From: a virus
Lineage: Duplodnaviria; Heunggongvirae; Uroviricota; Caudoviricetes
Strand: one strand, 5' to 3'
IMG/VR virus record: IMGVR_UViG_2609459839_000001
DNA: 39,079 nucleotides
Shown: positions 1 through 38,198 of the stretch, in pieces
How positions within the stretch are numbered: the stretch's first letter is position 1
Layout: each line of letters begins with the position of its first letter
Translations under genes and position numbers: made by a program
The notes under the pieces: generated by a model
Seen by the model: the letters and a program-made list of their open reading frames with translations, nothing else
Told to the model about the DNA's origin: nothing
Database searches by the model: none

Positions 1-327
1 TTACATGGTCAATTTGATTCCATTTCCATGTTTTACCTTCTTCACTGCCTGCCTGGAAATATATCTACAAAAAGCTGTGTAATACGCAATGCGGCGCAGG
101 CCTTAACTGACGATGGAACTCTATACGGAGCCACAATTCTTGGTGACGGCGTTGTGCACAATAGCTTCGGTCAAAAACTGATGCGCATTTACAATCAAAA
201 AGGCATCTTTTCAAACACAAAAGATTCCGAAGAAGGCTTAACACATATACTCTCAGAGCATTTCGAGAATGTTAAAACCAAGATTAAAGGTACTGTAGTA
301 ATGTTTTCCGCTTCAGGGAAAAAATAG
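1..327 (+). CDS. hypothetical protein, 3' part of a gene running off the left edge (possible cargo gene)
   Basis: Reading frame is open from nt 1 (no stop upstream of the ATG at 28), ends TAG 325-327; no SD before the internal ATG; no family recognised. Confidence 0.3.
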   Translation, partial: LHGQFDSISMFYLLHCLPGNISTKSCVIRNAAQALTDDGTLYGATILGDGVVHNSFGQKLMRIYNQKGIFSNTKDSEEGLTHILSEHFENVKTKIKGTVVMFSASGKK

Positions 328-334
328 CATCCAG

Positions 335-367
335 CCGCAGCACGTTCTTGCGCACGACGTGCTGCGG
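335..367. terminator. perfect 10-bp inverted repeat (CCGCAGCACG / CGTGCTGCGG, 13-nt loop) just after the stop of the left-edge ORF
   Basis: Read directly; no clean U-tract on the plus side, TATTTTTT follows on the minus side. Confidence 0.3.
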
Positions 368-774
368 CATAATCCCAATGATTACTCCCTGACAGGGTTC
401 GTAGGCCACTCAATATCAGGTGCAGTTGATGTATCAACACGGTTCAGCAACACCCTGCATGCCTTCCATGCCGCCAGCAATGATGTTTCCTCCTTCGTTG
501 CATATACTGCTCACCTTTTTCACCCACGATTAACCAACAGCCAGATTCGCAGGCACGCCCCACCACGGCATATTCATACGCTTGCCATGTCCGAACATTT
601 CAATCCAGCGATATTATGCCTGGGGTGTTCAAGCGCAATGAAGTACGTATTGTATCTTCGCGATTTTTTATAGGCTAATTGACGCGCAATTCTGAGCGGG
701 GAGCGCACAATCAAACAGCACAGAATGGATCGCTGATATTTATCCTTTTGTCGGTTTATCAAACAACAAGAGAG

Positions 775-2604
775 TCAATAGCGGATTGTCCCTACATCCA
801 TTTCTGGCGAATCCACTAACCAGAAATTATCTGGCTTTACAGCCAGAATGATCCAGGCAGTGTTTGTTGTTGATGACCAGGAAGGCAGCACATCGTATGC
901 CGGGTCATCGCAAGAATCACGATAACCGTACTCATTAAAAAGTGGAGCCATTGCTGCCACAAGATTCACCGCATTCAGCTCATTACCCAGCTTGCGCTCA
1001 AAAAGTGCCACCCCTGCCGTTCCTTCCACCCACACGCCACGGCTGTGACCACTATAACCATAATCAGGGTGGTACGGTGTGTAACCCGTGGTTTCCCTCG
1101 TACCAAATAAAAAACGCCCCATATATTTTCGGCACTTAGCCGCTTTCTCAGCATCAATATTGGCAACAAACAATCCGCCCCAGGAAGACTGATCCAGCGC
1201 CGCTGCGTTGTCATAGTGGGTTGAATGAACCCCCTGTCGAAATCGGCCTTCATCTTCCACCCACAGACCTCTGATGATGCTCTTTGCCAGCCTGTCAGCC
1301 CGCTCACTGAAACCGTCAAATCCCAGCCGTCCCATCAGTTCAAACAAAAACCAGATATCAACGTTATGCTCCAGTGCGCACCATTCGGCGACAAAAGTTT
1401 CATCAAAATTGCCGTCCACATAACGCCCCTGCCCCCCTTTATACAGGCCTTCACGCAGGTCGCCTGGTGTGCTCACCAGAAAAGTATCCAGCCAGGCAAT
1501 GCCTGCCAATAGCTTTTCTCTGACCCGCGCAGTCTGAGTACCGTCCGGATACTTCTCCAGATAGAAAGCAAGAGCATAATAAACCCATGCCGCATTGCCC
1601 AAGCGGTAATAGGTACGCGGTGACATGGCAGACAGCCTGTTAACAAAAAACTTTACTCCACCGTTTTCATCAACAAGCGCACACAAGCCCGCAACGTATC
1701 TTTCTACAGCCTCATGTCGCTGAACCATCAACGCCAGTGCTGCCAGCGCCTGGTCATACGTGTAACACCGATCTTTCATCACCCTGATCACTTCGGGGTC
1801 TGCGTCCTCCGGCATCCAGTAGCTACGAATGAGCAGTGGAAACTCCAGCGTTGTGATCCACGCATTATCCTCAATCCGAATAAGACGAAACTGTTTTGCT
1901 CCCGTCCAGCAACGTCTGAAATAGAAAGTTCCGTCACTATTCAAATTAGCGTCGCCGTTAAAATACTCTCCGGTTGTATAAGCATACATATCGACTTTAT
2001 ACTTTTCAGGTTCAGGAATATCGCAATATCCGTTAACTGCACCGACATAATTAAAATCGATATTTTCTTTTATTTTTAAAGATATTGATGTATTAACAAC
2101 CTCGGGTTGTTCCAGTTTTAACATTGCAGTAGTGCAACGACTCACGATGTCGTCAAAGTTCTCAAAGCGCAAACCGGGAAAACTATCGGCTATTCCCTGC
2201 ATTTCAGACAGTAACGCTTCTGCCCTTTTTGTCGCTGATATTGCCACATCTGCACTTCGTTGCGCCTGACTTGTCAAATCTTCAAATCGTTTCACCACAT
2301 CTGGCTTCAGGTCGCCTTCGTCGGGGGCAGTCAGAAAATCATTCAGCGTACCTGGTCTGGAACCTTCATAAACGGTAATGGTCCCGGCATGTGAAGGCGG
2401 AAAACCTTCAACCAACAGGGTGACGCTGTACTGACCATACTCAACATCCATGCTGTAACGTCCAGCTTCATCCGGATTTTCTGAGGCCACCGTGTTCACC
2501 ACAACCGTTGTGCTGTTACGTTTTGCCTTCAGTTGAATAGTGCAGTTCTGTATTGGTTTTCCCGCACCATCTTTCAGCACACCTGAGATTTTTACTGCTG
2601 CCAT
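775..2604 (-). CDS. side tail fibre / tailspike-like protein: lambda Stf-like N-terminal anchor fused to a non-fibre, enzyme-like C-terminal domain
   Basis: N-terminus MAAVKISGVLKDGAGKPIQNCTIQLKA...EAGRYSMDVEYGQYSVTL matches my recollection of the lambda Stf N-terminus; remaining ~480 aa lacks fibre repeats; ATG at 2604 preceded by GGTGGTGG; no tfa-like gene downstream. Confidence 0.7.
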   Translation of the reverse strand: MAAVKISGVLKDGAGKPIQNCTIQLKAKRNSTTVVVNTVASENPDEAGRYSMDVEYGQYSVTLLVEGFPPSHAGTITVYEGSRPGTLNDFLTAPDEGDLKPDVVKRFEDLTSQAQRSADVAISATKRAEALLSEMQGIADSFPGLRFENFDDIVSRCTTAMLKLEQPEVVNTSISLKIKENIDFNYVGAVNGYCDIPEPEKYKVDMYAYTTGEYFNGDANLNSDGTFYFRRCWTGAKQFRLIRIEDNAWITTLEFPLLIRSYWMPEDADPEVIRVMKDRCYTYDQALAALALMVQRHEAVERYVAGLCALVDENGGVKFFVNRLSAMSPRTYYRLGNAAWVYYALAFYLEKYPDGTQTARVREKLLAGIAWLDTFLVSTPGDLREGLYKGGQGRYVDGNFDETFVAEWCALEHNVDIWFLFELMGRLGFDGFSERADRLAKSIIRGLWVEDEGRFRQGVHSTHYDNAAALDQSSWGGLFVANIDAEKAAKCRKYMGRFLFGTRETTGYTPYHPDYGYSGHSRGVWVEGTAGVALFERKLGNELNAVNLVAAMAPLFNEYGYRDSCDDPAYDVLPSWSSTTNTAWIILAVKPDNFWLVDSPEMDVGTIRY

Positions 2605-2613
2605 ATCCACCAC

Positions 2614-2645
2614 CCCACAAAAAAGCCCGCCAGAATATGCGGGCT
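2614..2645 (-). terminator. rho-independent terminator downstream of lom
   Basis: Stem AGCCCGC/GCGGGCT (2624-2630 / 2639-2645), 8-nt loop, followed on the minus strand by TTTTTTGTGG. Confidence 0.55.
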
Positions 2646-2661
2646 GTCATAACACTGCTAA

Positions 2662-3261
2662 TCAGAATTTATAACCGACACCCACGATAAAACCGTCAGT
2701 GCGCCAGTCACCACTGCCGGAGCCTTCATAAGCAATATCAATGGCCACGGATTCGGTCGGGTTAAACTGCACGCCAGCTCCCCACGCCAGAGAGGTGTTA
2801 CTGTGGCGAGCGTCATCACTTCCGGTCAGCACGTCGTGCGTTTTTCCCTTGTTGTCAGTTACGCGGAGATAATCCCCGGAAAAAGTCGACACACGGCTGT
2901 AAGCCACGCCTGCCATCGCATACGCGCTGAACCATTCATTCACGCGCACAGATGGCCCCGCCATCATGCTGAACCAGCGGTTACGCACTGAATCTTCATG
3001 CCAGCGGGTATCACTGTAACGGGTAATCTGGCGATTCTTGTCTCCGGCATAACTGAATGACGTCACCAGCCCCAGCGTGTCCGTAAATTCATAACGGTAT
3101 TTCACGTTAATGCCCTTCAGGTCATCGTTGCCGGGCATATCAGTATGGGACTGAATATACCCGGAGCTTAGTGTGGACTGATGCTCTGCTGCACTCGCTG
3201 GCGTACCAGCGGCAACCAGCCAGACTACTGCGGACAGAATAACAGCACATAATTTACGCAT
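2662..3261 (-). CDS. lom: Lom/Ail/PagC-family outer-membrane beta-barrel protein
   Basis: 199 aa, signal peptide [25 protein letters not shown]-terminal ...GVGYKF; position immediately after J as in lambda. Confidence 0.85.
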
Positions 3262-26098: not shown

Positions 26099-26173
<75 letters not shown>

Positions 26174-26176
26174 ATA

Positions 26177-26252
<76 letters not shown>

Positions 26253-26254
26253 AC

Positions 26255-26331
26255 TGGACCGCCACCGGGGACTCGAACCTCGCACACTCAACTTAAAGGG
26301 TTGACGCTCTTTCCTGATGAGCCAGTGGCGG
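26255..26331 (-). tRNA. aberrant tRNA-like gene, anticodon UUU (Lys) if functional; possible pseudo-tRNA
   Basis: CCGCCAC acceptor with CCA end and TTCGAGT T-loop, but C at position 33, atypical D-loop, and an A-C mismatch in T-stem. Confidence 0.45.
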
Positions 26332-26332
26332 T

Positions 26333-26408
26333 TGGTGGCCCTTGCTGGATTTGAACCAGCGACCTGGCGATTATGAGTCGCTCGCTCTCACCACTGAGCT
26401 AAAGGGCC
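26333..26408 (-). tRNA. tRNA with anticodon CAU (Met or Ile2/lysidine type, ileX/ileZ-like)
   Basis: GGCCCTT acceptor, anticodon loop CTCATAA, TTCAAAT T-loop, CCA end; resembles E. coli ileX. Confidence 0.75.
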
Positions 26409-35173: not shown

Positions 35174-35191
35174 TGTTTTAAAATCAAAACA
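35174..35191. promoter_or_regulatory. candidate operator half-site palindrome TGTTTT-N6-AAAACA in the cro/cI divergent region
   Basis: Abuts cI start codon; same palindrome type found at the early-left promoter. Confidence 0.4.
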
Positions 35192-35829
35192 TGAGCAAGC
35201 AAACTATATCTGAACGCATAACCCAACGTATGCATGCGCTAAACCTGAAAGGCAAAGACCTTGTCAATGGCACTGGCGCATCAAAAGGCTCCGTAAGTCA
35301 ATGGATGAACGGTGGAGGAGCGCCGTCCTCGCGTTACATAAGTTCACTGGCAAAAATATTGAAAGTAAACGAAAATTGGCTTCTTAATGGAGGAGAGTTA
35401 AATACAGGTGATTCGCTTGATCTATCTTTACCGCCGATAAAAACGGTTCCGCTACTATCACTTCAGCAGGCAGCAAGCTGGAGTGATTATATGAAAAATT
35501 CCTCAATAACCTCTTGTGTGCAGCTTGTCGGAGAAATCCCGGTCAATACCTTTGCAGTTGTTCTAGAGAGTGACAGTATGTCAACATCTGGTGGGGGAGT
35601 TTCCATCCCAAATGGTTCAACAGTTTTTGTTGATCCCGATCGAACCGTACAACCAGGAAATATTGTCCTTGCCTTACCCAAAGGGACCACAACACCTGTC
35701 ATTCGTAAACTGGAGATAGAAGGGCCGGATATTCTTTTAGTCCCCACGAATCCTCGCTACCCTTCAATTATGCTGGATGATCTATCTTGCATATTGGGCG
35801 TATGCTTTAAAATTCAACAAGATATTTAA
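35191..35829 (+). CDS. CI-type repressor (HTH_XRE + S24 LexA-like peptidase)
   Basis: 212 aa; N-terminal HTH, C-terminal S24-like domain. Confidence 0.85.
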   Translation: MSKQTISERITQRMHALNLKGKDLVNGTGASKGSVSQWMNGGGAPSSRYISSLAKILKVNENWLLNGGELNTGDSLDLSLPPIKTVPLLSLQQAASWSDYMKNSSITSCVQLVGEIPVNTFAVVLESDSMSTSGGGVSIPNGSTVFVDPDRTVQPGNIVLALPKGTTTPVIRKLEIEGPDILLVPTNPRYPSIMLDDLSCILGVCFKIQQDI

Positions 35830-36677: not shown

Positions 36678-37052
36678 ATGGAATTTAAAGATTTACCAAT
36701 GCAATTCCAGGAAATGGCAGCGAATATAGTTCGTTCCCAACTGGCGACTCTTGACCTGAGTACCGTAGAAAAAGAAACCATCGATACTATATCCGGTAAC
36801 GTGCGTCGTGTCTTTATCGGCCTGTACGAAGAGAAGCAGCTCTCTGATAACCAGGATTTACATGAAAAATACCTCCTGGAATTAATGGATATCATTGATA
36901 AGGGGTTTGGCTTGTTAATGAAAAAGAAAGGGATTCGGATAGAACCCCTTAAGAACCATTTTACTGAGTGCGGCATTAATCCCAGCGATTTAAACCATCC
37001 CGCCACAGATGGGAGTGTTACAGTTAGCCATGAAATTTCGATTAATCATTAA
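36678..37052 (+). CDS. hypothetical protein (124 aa)
   Basis: ATG 36678 with SD; no family recognised. Confidence 0.45.
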   Translation: MEFKDLPMQFQEMAANIVRSQLATLDLSTVEKETIDTISGNVRRVFIGLYEEKQLSDNQDLHEKYLLELMDIIDKGFGLLMKKKGIRIEPLKNHFTECGINPSDLNHPATDGSVTVSHEISINH

Positions 37053-37263
37053 AATCAATTGCACTTTCAATAAGTGATGCCATCTCATTGCATTTTGTTG
37101 AATTCATCTTACGCAATGAGTCACAAATTTCCGCTGGCTTTGATGACGCAGGCAACTTAGCAGCAAGTAGCATAATTGCCGTTTTTATAGCAGTGAGCTC
37201 ATCCGCAAGTCCAGCAGGAGAAACATCGTGGTTAAACTGGATATTTACATTTTTACTAGTCAT
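37042..37263 (-). CDS. hypothetical protein (73 aa), convergent with preceding gene
   Basis: ATG 37263 preceded by strong SD AGGAGGGTGA. Confidence 0.45.
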   Translation of the reverse strand: MTSKNVNIQFNHDVSPAGLADELTAIKTAIMLLAAKLPASSKPAEICDSLRKMNSTKCNEMASLIESAIDFND

Positions 37264-37594
37264 TTCACCCTCCTGAGGGTTGGTAATTAAGGAGTTCTCC
37301 ACGGGTCAGGTGGAGTGCGTGCGCCGGACACGGGTGAGCATCCGGCACTGGCAGTTTACTGGAAGGATATATCCCTGAAAAGTCAGGACATAACGCGAAA
37401 GCGCACGGCGAAGTTATTCTGTCTGTACGGTGTCGTTAAATTTAATTCGACCGTGCGCTTCCGGTTGTGGCAATCCGCGAAATGGCGCGGCGGTAAGTAT
37501 GGCGGGGGTATTCCTTCCCCGTTGAGGACACCGGGTTGTCAGGTTGACCATACGCTTAAGTGACAACCCCGCTGCAACGCCCTCTGTTATCAAT

Positions 37595-37652
37595 TTTCTG
37601 GTGGCGTTTGGCGGTATCAGTTTTACTCCGTGACTGCTCTGCCGCCCTTTTT
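37595..37652 (+). ncRNA. dicF: DicF small RNA
   Basis: TTTCTGGTGGCGTTTGGCGGTATCAGTTTTACTCCGTGACTGCTCTGCCGCCCTTTTT matches my recollection of E. coli DicF with one mismatch; ends in hairpin + U-tract. Confidence 0.8.
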
Positions 37653-37821
37653 AAAGTGAATTTTGTGATGCGGTGAATGCGGCTAAGCGCACGCGGAACA
37701 GTTAAAACCAAAAACAGTGTTATGGGTGGGTTCTCTGTATCCGGCGTTAATTGTTAACTGGTTAACGTCACCTGGAGGCACCAGGCACCGCATCACAAAA
37801 TTCATTGTTGAGGACGCGATA

Positions 37822-38010
37822 ATGGAAACGTTATTACCAAACGTTAATACGTCTGAAGGTTGTTTTGAAATTGGTGTCACTATCAGTAACCCTGTATTTA
37901 CTGAAGATGCCATTAACAAGAGAAAACAAGAACGGGAGCTATTAAATAAAATATGCATTGTTTCAATGCTGGCTCGTTTACGTCTGATGCCAAAAGGATG
38001 TGCACAATGA
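37822..38010 (+). CDS. dicB: cell-division inhibitor DicB
   Basis: 62 aa METLLPNVNTSEGCFEIGVTISNPVFTEDAINKRKQERELLNKICIVSMLARLRLMPKGCAQ. Confidence 0.9.
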   Translation: METLLPNVNTSEGCFEIGVTISNPVFTEDAINKRKQERELLNKICIVSMLARLRLMPKGCAQ

Positions 38011-38198
38011 ATTCAGCATTTGCGCTTGTTCTGACAGTTTTTCTTGTTTCCGGAGAGCCAGTTGATATTGCAGTCAGTGTTCACAGGACAATGCAGGAGT
38101 GTATGACTGCAGCAACCGAACAGAAAATTCCCGGTAACTGTTACCCGGTCGATAAAGTTATTCACCAGGATAATATCGAAATCCCGGCAGGTCTTTAA
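38007..38198 (+). CDS. ydfD: YdfD-like small membrane protein
   Basis: 63 aa MNSAFALVLTVFLVSGEPVD...; ATG overlaps dicB stop (ATGA). Confidence 0.8.
   Translation: MNSAFALVLTVFLVSGEPVDIAVSVHRTMQECMTAATEQKIPGNCYPVDKVIHQDNIEIPAGL

What the first reader, a model, noticed from the sequence alone, without database searches (positions are those of the whole stretch)
37264..37594. About 330-nt GC-rich, stem-loop-dense noncoding region immediately upstream of DicF
Seen: no convincing ORF (plus ORF 37315-37563 is low-complexity), but several hairpins (e.g. GCCGGA...TCCGGC; CGGGG...CCCCG; GGTTGTCA-19 nt-TGACAACC). Established: DicF is processed out of a longer operon transcript. Inference: processing leader or separate structured RNA.
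Basis: partly seen in the sequence, partly recalled or inferred. Interest (0 to 1): 0.45.

Follow-up and report, generated by a model that had tools for sequence, protein, structure and literature searches.

The report
Conserved folded RNA leader before DicF
The stretch upstream of the small RNA DicF is its known RNase III-processed leader, and its last ~115 bases form a strongly conserved four-helix RNA fold, absent from Rfam, that also heads early operons of phage P1 and many lambda-like phages and is always followed by a terminator.

Summary
Window 37264-37594 is non-coding, GC-rich and hairpin-rich, and it ends one base before DicF (37595-37647). It is 92% identical to the ydfC-dicF spacer of prophage Qin and occurs in 4314 of 5426 complete E. 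coli genomes.

It has three modules:
- A, 37278-37388: conserved in sequence but optional, with no covariation.
- B, 37389-37469: a ~22-bp helix. In K-12 this is the published RNase III site that makes the 5' end of the stable 190-nt pre-DicF RNA.
- C, 37464-37578: a four-helix domain with a loop-loop pseudoknot. It is 96% paired over 77 distinct sequences, 12 of 29 pairs show compensatory changes, and it has no Rfam match.

Module C recurs in phage P1/P7 (about 25 nt after the Pban promoter), in cdtI/Stx2c-type phages, in several Enterobacterales genera and in an Actinobacillus phage. It always follows a repressor-controlled early promoter and always precedes an intrinsic terminator and the early genes.

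Helix B also pairs with the 5' strand of the domain's closing helix, so cleavage should free the domain to fold.

My best guess (about 0.4) is that module C controls read-through at that terminator. The function is untested.

The parts
37264..37277 (-). Ribosome-binding site and 5' UTR of the minus-strand ORF 37042-37263 (73 aa, phrog_7249). Not part of the leader proper.
   Evidence: On the minus strand, AGGAGGGTGAA precedes the ATG at 37263. Only genomes that carry this ORF match query positions 1-14. PHROG hit.
37278..37388 (+). Module A: a sequence-conserved but optional leader segment with potential hairpins at 37297-37315, 37323-37346 and 37374-37387.
   Evidence: Present in about 77 of 144 element copies and absent from 25-27 copies that keep module B. 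RNAalifold finds no pair with a compensatory change, and the covariation term is +0.43. The first hairpin is replaced by a different hairpin in some variants.
37389..37469 (+). Module B = helix P0, a ~22-bp interrupted helix with a hypervariable tip: CAUAAC.CG.AAGCGCACGGCGAA paired with UUCG.CCGUGCGCUU.CGGUUGUG. It is an RNase III substrate, and its last 6 pairs (37464-69) use up most of the 5' strand of the domain's closing helix.
   Evidence: Same MFE structure in the window and in K-12. The stem arms are conserved and the tip is variable across 43 unique copies, with CAUAAC changing to CACAAC (U.G to C-G). The cdtI-type phages have a different-sequence helix with the same architecture. RNase III dependence of the 190-nt RNA is shown in K-12 (PMC10448788).
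37455..37458 (+). Inferred RNase III cut, which is the 5' end of the ~190-nt pre-DicF RNA. It lies in the 3' arm of P0.
   Evidence: The DicF 3' end at 37647 minus 190 nt gives 37458. The supplementary Fig. S1B sequence of PMC10448788 places the site in this arm. There are no indels between K-12 and the window from here to the DicF end. The position was transferred by homology and was not measured in this strain.
37464..37578 (+). Module C: the conserved four-helix domain. P1 is 37464-71/37571-78. P2 is 37475-79/37486-90 with loop AAAUGG. The P3 base is 37492-94/37530-32, and the variable P3 tip is 37504-07/37517-20. P4 is 37533-41/37561-69 with a 19-nt loop. The pseudoknot pairs GUAUGG 37497-502 with CCAUAC 37548-53.
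   Evidence: Covariance model R1 scores 141 bits, and this is the only copy in the window. In 23 representatives 93.4% of cells are paired (55% or less when partners are slid), and 13 pairs show double changes against 5.0 +/- 1.5 in shuffles. In 77 distinct CM-aligned sequences 96.2% are paired and 12 of 29 pairs show double changes. Tandem U.G/G.U pairs in P1 mark the + strand as the RNA strand. The pseudoknot pair U-A changes to C-G in the P1 clade. No Rfam hit at E <= 10.
37579..37594 (+). A/U-rich single-stranded spacer (GCCCUCUGUUAUCAAU) containing the RNase E site that creates the DicF 5' end.
   Evidence: DicF starts at 37595. RNase E dependence of the 53-nt form is published (PMC10448788). 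Comparable U-rich spacers precede the terminator hairpin in other types.
37595..37652 (+). DicF sRNA (37595-37647), its terminator hairpin (37610-37646) and the T-run (37648-52).
   Evidence: Rfam RF00039, 76.4 bits. Hairpin energy is -15.1 kcal/mol, followed by TTTTT.

Best explanation
Identity (shown, about 0.9): the region is the long untranslated leader of DicF in the early-left (dicBF) operon of a Qin-like lambdoid prophage. It contains an optional spacer (A), a long helix P0 that RNase III cleaves (B), and a conserved ~115-nt four-helix, pseudoknotted RNA domain (C). Domain C, an A/U-rich RNase E site and the DicF terminator hairpin together make up the stable ~190-nt pre-DicF RNA.

Mechanism (inferred, about 0.4): domain C and the intrinsic terminator that always follows it form a control point at the head of the phage early operon. 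The nascent, specifically folded domain would act in cis on the transcribing RNA polymerase, directly or through a conserved host factor. It would set how many polymerases stop at the terminator, releasing the 190-nt RNA and hence DicF-type sRNAs. The rest would read through into dicB/kil, exonuclease, xis and int (tRNAs and ban in P1). In that sense it would be an N-independent functional analogue of nutL or putL.

Helix P0 pairs with the 5' strand of the closing helix P1. RNase III cleavage therefore both detaches the upstream mRNA and lets P1 close the junction. In phage P1, where transcription starts about 25 nt upstream of the domain, no such helix is needed.
For: Identity and processing:
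- The region is 91.6% identical to the K-12 ydfC-dicF spacer, which carries no annotated feature.
- Sequence from the cleavage arm to the DicF end matches K-12 apart from three substitutions.

Fold:
- Covariation is strong.
- The single-sequence MFE reproduces the comparative model.

Cis-regulatory logic:
- The domain is always on the same strand as, and downstream of, the cI/dicA-like repressor gene, at the start of the early operon, in unrelated phage types. These are P1 (25 nt after the C1-controlled Pban), cdtI (about 280 nt after a TTGACA-16-CATAAT promoter), pPE4, and Erwinia, Izhakiella, Serratia and Citrobacter prophages.
- An intrinsic terminator follows in 132 of 139 copies by an automated test. 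The six real copies among the seven misses were read by eye, plus the Serratia copy: only the decayed Shigella copy lacks a terminator.
- pPE4 has two tandem terminators before kil.
- In the functional phages mEp460 and Tritos, dicB, exonuclease VIII, xis and int all lie behind this terminator. No N-like gene was found there. No consensus promoter was found downstream on the coding strand.
- About 45 unpaired nucleotides are near-invariant from Escherichia to Actinobacillus. Only singleton variants exist at three pseudoknot positions in IMG/VR. This implies recognition of a conserved partner.

P0/P1 competition is conserved in two sequence-unrelated versions of P0.
Against: - No experiment links the domain to termination.
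- In K-12 the 1146-nt transcript that ends at the DicF terminator is the main species, and the read-through RNA is seen only when RNase E is inactivated. Read-through is therefore not obviously efficient.
- I found no conserved antiterminator pairing between the domain and the terminator arms.
- There is only one copy per phage, whereas put has a copy in each early operon.
- A conserved RNase III maturation step, and the stability of the 190-nt RNA, fit a post-transcriptional or trans-acting role at least as well.
- One earlier study proposed a separate promoter upstream of dicB (cited).
- Three loci lack the P1 pairing: pPE4, from an isolated phage, and the Shigella-type L143 and L058.
Confidence: 0.4

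Rival explanations
1. Discrete early phage ncRNA. After RNase III (or the Pban start site in P1) and the terminator or RNase E define its ends, the folded domain acts in trans as a stable 137-190-nt RNA. It would bind or titrate a conserved host protein or complex. The terminator serves only to end the RNA, and DicF is a secondarily evolved 3' product.
For: - In P1 the arrangement promoter, 25 nt, domain, terminator looks like a self-contained sRNA gene.
- RNase III-type helices immediately 5' of the domain are conserved in two lambdoid types, which implies that a free 5' end near P1 matters.
- The 190-nt RNA is stable in stationary phase.
- The domain is more conserved than the DicF-like part, which in P1 is reduced to a plain terminator.
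- The loops are near-invariant.
Against: - Every copy sits at the head of a co-oriented early operon and never elsewhere. A free-standing trans-acting gene would not need that placement.
- No partner is known.
- No free 5' fragment of about 137 nt has been reported, because the probes used were against DicF.
Confidence: 0.25
2. Passive biogenesis scaffold for DicF-type sRNAs. The compact domain protects the precursor. After RNase III cleavage, helix P1 places the 5'-monophosphate end next to the A/U-rich RNase E site, which promotes accurate release of the sRNA. The domain has no other function.
For: - The 190-nt RNA accumulates when RNase E is inactive and disappears without RNase III.
- Helix P1 juxtaposes the processed 5' end (about 37458) and the RNase E site (37594/95).
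- U-rich spacers followed by UUGGCGG hairpins follow the domain in nearly all lambdoid types.
Against: - A generic hairpin would do this job. It does not explain a four-way junction, a pseudoknot and about 45 invariant unpaired bases kept across genera.
- It also does not explain retention in P1, where the downstream hairpin has no DicF-like seed.
Confidence: 0.2
3. Riboswitch-like sensor. The domain is an aptamer for a small molecule or tRNA-like ligand that conditionally gates the adjacent terminator.
For: It has aptamer-like complexity, lies in a 5' leader and is immediately followed by an intrinsic terminator.
Against: - No conserved mutually exclusive pairing with the terminator was found.
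- The best duplexes reflect only the shared GGCGG motif and are absent in P1.
- The spacer varies from 12 to 57 nt.
- The downstream genes (kil, exonuclease, int, tRNAs) suggest no metabolite.
Confidence: 0.08
4. The region is protein-coding (ORF 37315-37563 on the + strand or 37414-37593 on the - strand), or it is merely the promoter region or antisense target of the minus-strand ORF 37042-37263.
For: - ORFs of 82 and 59 aa exist.
- The minus strand folds with z = -4.4.
- The minus-strand ORF must be transcribed from somewhere within 37264-37400.
Against: - 1-nt indels inside the ORFs separate near-identical copies.
- Substitutions are compensatory for RNA pairing, and G.U pairs occur only on the + strand.
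- K-12 and most genomes keep the region without the minus-strand ORF.
- No consensus promoter was found on either strand.
Confidence: 0.03

Closest known systems
The pre-DicF leader of the Qin dicBF operon (Faubladier et al. 1990; Ragunathan et al. 2023, PMC10448788)
   Same: It is the same locus by homology (about 92% identity). The RNase III hairpin, the RNase E site and the terminator are the same, and the 190-nt and 53-nt species are expected here too.
   Different: The papers I could read call it a 'long untranslated region' and map only the ends. They do not describe the four-helix pseudoknotted domain, its occurrence outside dicF loci, or the competition between P0 and P1. This window also has two extra ORFs inserted between ydfC and the leader.
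HK022 put RNAs (putL/putR), protein-independent processive antiterminators
   Same: Both are structured nascent RNAs close to a repressor-controlled early promoter of a lambdoid phage that lacks N, with the early genes lying behind terminators. The put RNAs still work when cut from the transcript.
   Different: put is about 73 nt long and has two stem-loops with a triplex. This domain is about 115 nt long, with four helices and a pseudoknot. The HK022 genome gives no hit to the domain's covariance model. put occurs in both early operons, whereas this domain occurs only once per phage. Antitermination activity has not been tested here.
Lambda nutL and the N leader, which has an RNase III site
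   Same: Both occupy the position at the head of the PL operon, and both leaders contain an RNase III-cleaved helix.
   Different: No N-like gene was detected next to the domain. The boxA-like string GUGCUCU is base-paired within P0 rather than single-stranded. P2 does not match the boxB loop rules.
The 'dicF-like region' annotated in the phage P1 genome (NC_005856, 68791-68892)
   Same: It is the same element. The P1 copy scores 94 bits with the covariance model and covers 68725-68846.
   Different: The P1 annotation records only sequence similarity to the dicF locus. The similar part is in fact the upstream domain, not DicF itself: Rfam DicF does not hit P1.
sRNAs derived from 3' UTRs or from within operons by processing (CpxQ, SroC, SdhX)
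   Same: DicF is released from an operon transcript by RNase E, upstream of a Rho-independent terminator.
   Different: Those precursors have no conserved, independently mobile structured 5' domain.

Membership tests
DicF RNA (Rfam RF00039) | A match to the 52-nt DicF covariance model | tested here: not met
   The only hit is 37596-37647, outside the region. Nothing lies within 37264-37594 even at E <= 10. The region is the DicF leader, not DicF.
Any Rfam 15 family | A covariance-model hit at or near the gathering score | tested here: not met
   No hit lies within 37264-37594 at E <= 10. No hit covers the P1, cdtI or pPE4 copies at E <= 0.1.
RNase III processing site | An RNA helix of about two turns (20 bp or more, small interruptions tolerated) | tested here: met
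   Helix P0 has 8+10+4 bp at 37389-37469, and K-12 gives the same MFE structure.
RNase III processing site | An RNase III-dependent RNA end mapped within the helix | not testable with these tools
   This is shown for the K-12 orthologue by Northern blot and primer extension (PMC10448788). The 3' arm is identical in the window. It has not been measured in this strain.
HK022 put antiterminator RNA | A two-stem-loop architecture of about 70 nt | tested here: not met
   The domain has four helices plus a pseudoknot over about 115 nt. The put architecture is taken from PMC9378689.
HK022 put antiterminator RNA | Sequence and structure homology to putL/putR | tested here: not met
   Model R1 finds nothing in the HK022 genome; the best hit scores 5.5 bits at E = 8. 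HK022 is absent from the blastn hits.
HK022 put antiterminator RNA | One copy downstream of each early promoter (PL and PR) | tested here: not met
   There is a single copy in the 39-kb window and one per locus in 95 loci.
HK022 put antiterminator RNA | Suppression of terminators in cis without phage proteins | not testable with these tools
   This needs a read-through assay.
Lambda-type nut site | A single-stranded boxA, a boxB hairpin and an N protein gene | tested here: not met
   The boxA-like GUGCKCU is the 3' arm of helix P0. No N-like family was found among neighbouring ORFs with Pfam or PHROGs. None is annotated in mEp460 or Tritos.
Transcriptional riboswitch | A conserved structured aptamer in a 5' leader followed by an intrinsic terminator | tested here: met
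Transcriptional riboswitch | A conserved, mutually exclusive antiterminator/terminator pairing | tested here: inconclusive
   A duplex search over 14 types found only GGCGG/CCGCC complementarity, and none in P1.
tRNA / tmRNA / tRNA-like | A cloverleaf recognised by ARAGORN or the Rfam tRNA clan | tested here: not met
   ARAGORN finds nothing in 37200-37900, and there is no Rfam tRNA or tmRNA hit there. The resemblance is limited to a 7-8-bp closing helix and three arms.

The most novel reading that the evidence does not exclude
Module C is a new class of cis-acting RNA that makes E. coli-type RNA polymerase read through, or conditionally stop at, the terminator guarding the early-left operon. 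Through that it would gate cell-division inhibitors, recombination genes and xis/int. It would act without a phage N protein and with a fold unrelated to put or nut. It is present in about 80% of E. coli genomes, in phage P1 and in phages of several other genera.
Probability: 0.3. Interest if true: 0.85.

Novelty: new variant of a known kind. Interest (0 to 1): 0.6.

Why it matters
DicF and the dicBF operon have been studied since the 1980s, and phage P1 is a laboratory workhorse. Even so, the most conserved RNA feature of both loci appears to have no name, no Rfam family and no assigned function.

If the domain controls passage through the terminator, that would explain how N-less lambdoid phages and the P1 ban operon express genes placed behind a strong terminator. 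It would also explain how prophages keep toxic dicB/kil genes low while still producing DicF. It would add a third RNA solution, beside nut and put, to phage early antitermination.

If instead it is a trans-acting RNA, it is an abundant, unexplored phage RNA carried by most E. coli strains, in up to eight copies.

Either outcome can be tested directly with simple reporter constructs and existing rnc and rne strains.

Tried and rejected
- Known RNA family: Rfam at the gathering threshold and at E <= 10 finds nothing in the region.
- tRNA-like gene: ARAGORN is negative.
- put homologue: the architecture differs, and the HK022 genome gives no hit to the model.
- boxA/nut site: the conserved GUGCKCU string just 5' of the domain looked boxA-like. 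It is in fact the 3' arm of helix P0 in both the Qin and cdtI types, and no N gene was found.
- Coding ORF: rejected because of 1-nt indels and compensatory substitutions.
- Structure in the 5' third (module A): RNAalifold shows no covariation. It remains sequence-conserved, but a fold is unproven.
- Antiterminator pairing between the domain and the terminator arms: nothing consistent.
- Extra pseudoknot covariation: three IMG/VR scans for variants at pseudoknot positions found only one uncompensated singleton each. Pseudoknot support therefore rests on 6-bp complementarity of two invariant loops, one compensatory pair in the P1 clade, and G.U intermediates.
- A second copy in the PR operon: none.
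- Additional strong terminators or internal promoters in the downstream operons of Tritos and P1: none above the shuffle expectation.
- Literature: searches for the domain's sequence strings, for 'dicF-like', for boxA with dicB, and in structured-RNA discovery papers returned no description of the domain. The P1 genome paper (PMC523184) is not held.

Full report
**1. What is at the coordinates**

Window 37264-37594 lies between a minus-strand ORF (37042-37263) and DicF. Rfam places DicF at 37596-37647 with 76 bits, and the 53-nt K-12 form corresponds to 37595-37647.

The region has 50-55% GC, against about 40-44% around it. The + strand folds with z = -2.5 and the - strand with z = -4.4 relative to dinucleotide shuffles. 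That is more stable than chance, but not dramatically so.

The surrounding genes are those of a dicBF-type early-left operon:
- an LexA/cI-like repressor (35191-35829)
- a DUF1391 ydfA homologue
- ydfB- and ydfC-like ORFs
- after DicF, DicB (37822-38010) and DUF1482/YdfD (38007-38198)

**2. Homology and what is already known**

The region is the ydfC-dicF spacer of Qin. It is 91.6% identical over positions 15-331 to K-12 derivatives, where the 340 nt between ydfC and dicF carry no annotation. It occurs in 4314 of 5426 complete E. coli genomes, with up to 8 copies per genome.

In this window, two ORFs of unknown function are inserted between ydfC and the leader: 36678-37052 on the + strand and 37042-37263 on the - strand. 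The first 14 nt of the finding are the ribosome-binding site of the minus-strand ORF.

[quoted passage not shown] The K-12 transcript from dicBp is cut by RNase III to give a 190-nt DicF species, and by RNase E to give the 53-nt sRNA. Both species accumulate and are stable in stationary phase (PMC10448788).

The supplementary sequence places the RNase III site in the 3' arm of a hairpin. The window has no indels relative to K-12 from that arm to the DicF end. Subtracting 190 nt from 37647 therefore puts the cut near 37455-37458.

**3. The region is modular**

BLAST against phages showed that sub-segments travel separately. Positions 115-331 of the query occur without the first third. Positions 201-323 occur alone in cdtI, Stx2c-converting, Ayreon and 2H10 phages. 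They also occur in a Salmonella phage, in P1/P7-type phages and in an Actinobacillus phage, and in about 500 P1-like plasmids.

Among 144 copies collected, about 77 have modules A+B, 25-27 have B without A, and 40 have neither.

**4. Module C, a conserved four-helix domain (37464-37578)**

Aligning the window, K-12, P1, cdtI and pPE4 revealed a ~115-nt core with long invariant runs and visible compensatory changes. A two-anchor pattern then retrieved at least 120 viral contigs. In the one-genome-per-species collection it hit E. coli, E. albertii, E. ruysiae, Shigella, two Citrobacter, Serratia symbiotica, Trabulsiella, Erwinia tracheiphila and Izhakiella, plus the expected chance hits.

Twenty-three representatives were aligned. 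They give this consensus:
- a closing helix P1 of 8 bp
- hairpin P2, CCGCG-AAAUGG-CGCGG
- P3, with a CGGU/ACCG base, a large internal loop and a tip of variable length
- P4, 9 bp with a 19-nt almost invariant loop

GUAUGG in the P3 internal loop is complementary to CCAUAC in the P4 loop. The P1/P7 clade has GCAUGG/CCAUGC, and two sequences have the U.G intermediate.

Pair counts:
- On the 23-sequence MAFFT alignment, 93.4% of cells are paired, against 55% or less when partners are slid. Thirteen pairs show changes on both sides, against 5.0 +/- 1.5 in shuffles (0 of 500 shuffles reached this).
- On 77 distinct sequences aligned to covariance model R1, 96.2% are paired and 12 of 29 pairs show double changes, again with 0 of 500 shuffles. 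That alignment is fitted to the model and so leans towards the structure.

The frequent U.G and G.U pairs in P1 and P4 exist only on the + strand, so the RNA is the + strand, co-oriented with DicF.

The single-sequence MFE of the window copy reproduces the same helices, although its energy is unremarkable at z = -1.1.

The pattern used for retrieval forces part of the invariance. I therefore scanned IMG/VR for variants at three pseudoknot positions using anchors outside them. Each scan found one uncompensated singleton. This shows strong purifying selection but adds no covariation.

Other negative results:
- No Rfam family matches, even at E <= 10.
- ARAGORN finds no tRNA-like gene.
- Full-text searches for the domain's sequence strings and for descriptions of it returned nothing.

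**5. Module B, helix P0 (37389-37469)**

The window and K-12 fold into the same 22-bp interrupted helix. Across 43 unique Qin-type copies the two arms are conserved while the tip is hypervariable. The outermost segment varies from CAUAAC to CACAAC opposite GUUGUG. That outermost segment pairs with GUUGUG, which is most of the 5' strand of domain helix P1.

The cdtI-type phages have an unrelated P0 sequence with the same design, again ending in pairs to CGUUGU: GCAACG-A-UGAGGGCAU... paired with ...GUGCUCUCA-G-CGUUGU.

In embedded versions, a long RNase III-type helix therefore competes with P1. Cleavage should release the strand and let the junction close. In phage P1 the annotated Pban -10 element is at 68691-96 and the domain starts at 68725. 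The native 5' end is thus already about 25 nt upstream, and no P0 is present. That cleavage causes refolding is an inference.

**6. Module A (37278-37388)**

Module A is conserved in sequence and contains hairpin-capable segments. RNAalifold on 22 variants finds no compensatory pair and a covariation term of +0.43. Its first hairpin is swapped for another in some lineages. Its function is unresolved, and it is dispensable for the rest of the module.

**7. Context rules**

*Orientation and position.* Every copy examined lies downstream of, and on the same strand as, the cI/dicA-like repressor gene, at the head of the early operon. Examples:
- P1 Pban, followed by tRNAs, tciABC and ban
- cdtI, about 280 nt after a near-consensus promoter
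- pPE4, before kil
- Erwinia, Izhakiella, L036 and L051, before phrog_204/YfdQ-type or RdgC-like genes
- mEp460 and Tritos, before dicB, ydfD, exonuclease VIII, xis and int

*Terminator.* An intrinsic terminator follows in 132 of 139 testable copies by an automated rule. Of the seven misses, one was a chance pattern hit. I read the other six by eye, plus the Serratia copy, and only the decayed Shigella copy lacks a terminator. The T-run lies 35-120 nt after the domain. In Qin types that terminator is the DicF hairpin. In P1 it is an unrelated GCCCAUC-UUCG-GGUGGGC hairpin. pPE4 has two in tandem.

*Copy number.* There is one copy per locus and only one in the 39-kb window.

*Neighbours.* No N-like protein was detected among neighbouring genes. 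No consensus promoter or further strong terminator appears downstream in Tritos or P1 beyond the shuffle expectation.

**8. Mechanism**

*Shown.* The region is a non-coding leader. Its 3' 190 nt form a stable RNase III-generated RNA in the K-12 orthologue. RNase E releases DicF. The domain has a conserved fold.

*Inferred.* Two unrelated phage lineages place the same RNA between a repressor-controlled early promoter and a terminator that all early genes lie behind. The domain also keeps about 45 unpaired bases invariant across genera. I therefore consider a cis-acting role at that terminator the most likely single mechanism (about 0.4). That role would be setting the split between termination, which yields the 190-nt RNA and DicF-type sRNAs, and read-through into dicB/kil, exo, xis and int, or into ban.

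*Against this.* Termination is apparently the dominant outcome in K-12. I found no conserved antiterminator pairing. There is only a single copy per phage. A conserved maturation helix suits a post-transcriptional role equally well.

*Rivals.*
- a discrete trans-acting protein-binding RNA (0.25)
- a passive RNase E presentation and stability scaffold (0.2)
- a ligand-sensing riboswitch (0.08)
- coding or promoter readings (0.03)

**9. Comparison with known systems**

The leader itself is the known pre-DicF leader. The domain works, at most, like put or nut. It fails their membership tests on architecture, on homology, on copy number, and on boxA/N. The 'dicF-like region' annotated in P1 is this domain plus its terminator, not DicF.

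**10. Verdict**

The processing leader is already known. The conserved pseudoknotted domain, its spread to P1 and other phages, its obligatory terminator partner and the P0/P1 competition appear to be undescribed and are directly testable.

Noticed in passing
window 37645-37854 (+); L007 2766-2950; L005 3842-3961: The dicF-dicB spacer gives a sub-threshold match to Rfam STnc100 (38 bits against a gathering score of 47). The same family gives weak hits before kil in Actinobacillus phage pPE4 and before tciA in phage P1. This suggests a second conserved leader element upstream of division-inhibitor genes.
   Followed up: no
window 36678-37052 (+) and 37042-37263 (-): Two convergent ORFs of unknown function, overlapping by 11 nt (124 aa, phrog_6937; 73 aa, phrog_7249; no Pfam), are inserted between ydfC and the DicF leader. 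K-12 lacks them. The closest relative (strain 99-3165) has an IS1 in the 124-aa ORF. The promoter of the minus-strand ORF would have to lie antisense within module A, and no consensus promoter was found.
   Followed up: partly
L007 (Actinobacillus phage vB_Apl-pPE4) 2606-2781: A perfect tandem duplication of the P1 3' strand, the spacer and the DicF-like terminator gives two consecutive intrinsic terminators between the domain and kil. This copy also lacks pairing in helix P1.
   Followed up: partly
L143 (Shigella flexneri) 1453-1576; L058 5220-5343: In this variant a deletion between two GCGAAA direct repeats removed helix P0 and the 5' strand of P1. In the Shigella copy the DicF hairpin is also degraded. 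These copies are probably decaying.
   Followed up: no
L155, L156, L051, L152, L141 (Erwinia, Izhakiella, Trabulsiella and Serratia types), 20-120 nt after the domain: The terminator hairpin is about 60-70 nt long and contains a conserved AGGAG-N8-ATG/GTG, which may be a small ORF start or simply an inner stem. L155, L156 and L051 also carry a GGTTCAATTCCTGCC fragment, resembling a tRNA T-arm, upstream of the domain.
   Followed up: no
window 26102-26408 (-): A cluster of four tRNA genes, typical of the late-regulatory region of lambdoid and Stx-type prophages.
   Followed up: no
L006 (phage cdtI) 40-228 (-): C4 antisense RNA (68 bits) and isrK (60 bits) lie side by side near the immunity region of phage cdtI. 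The same phage therefore carries both the P1-type c4 system and the domain described here.
   Followed up: no
window 37610-37646 compared with 37486-37502: Most terminators that follow the domain begin with UUGGCGGUA, which repeats the domain's own GCGGCGGUAAG. The terminator 3' arm could in principle pair with either. This is absent in P1, so I did not treat it as a conserved switch.
   Followed up: partly
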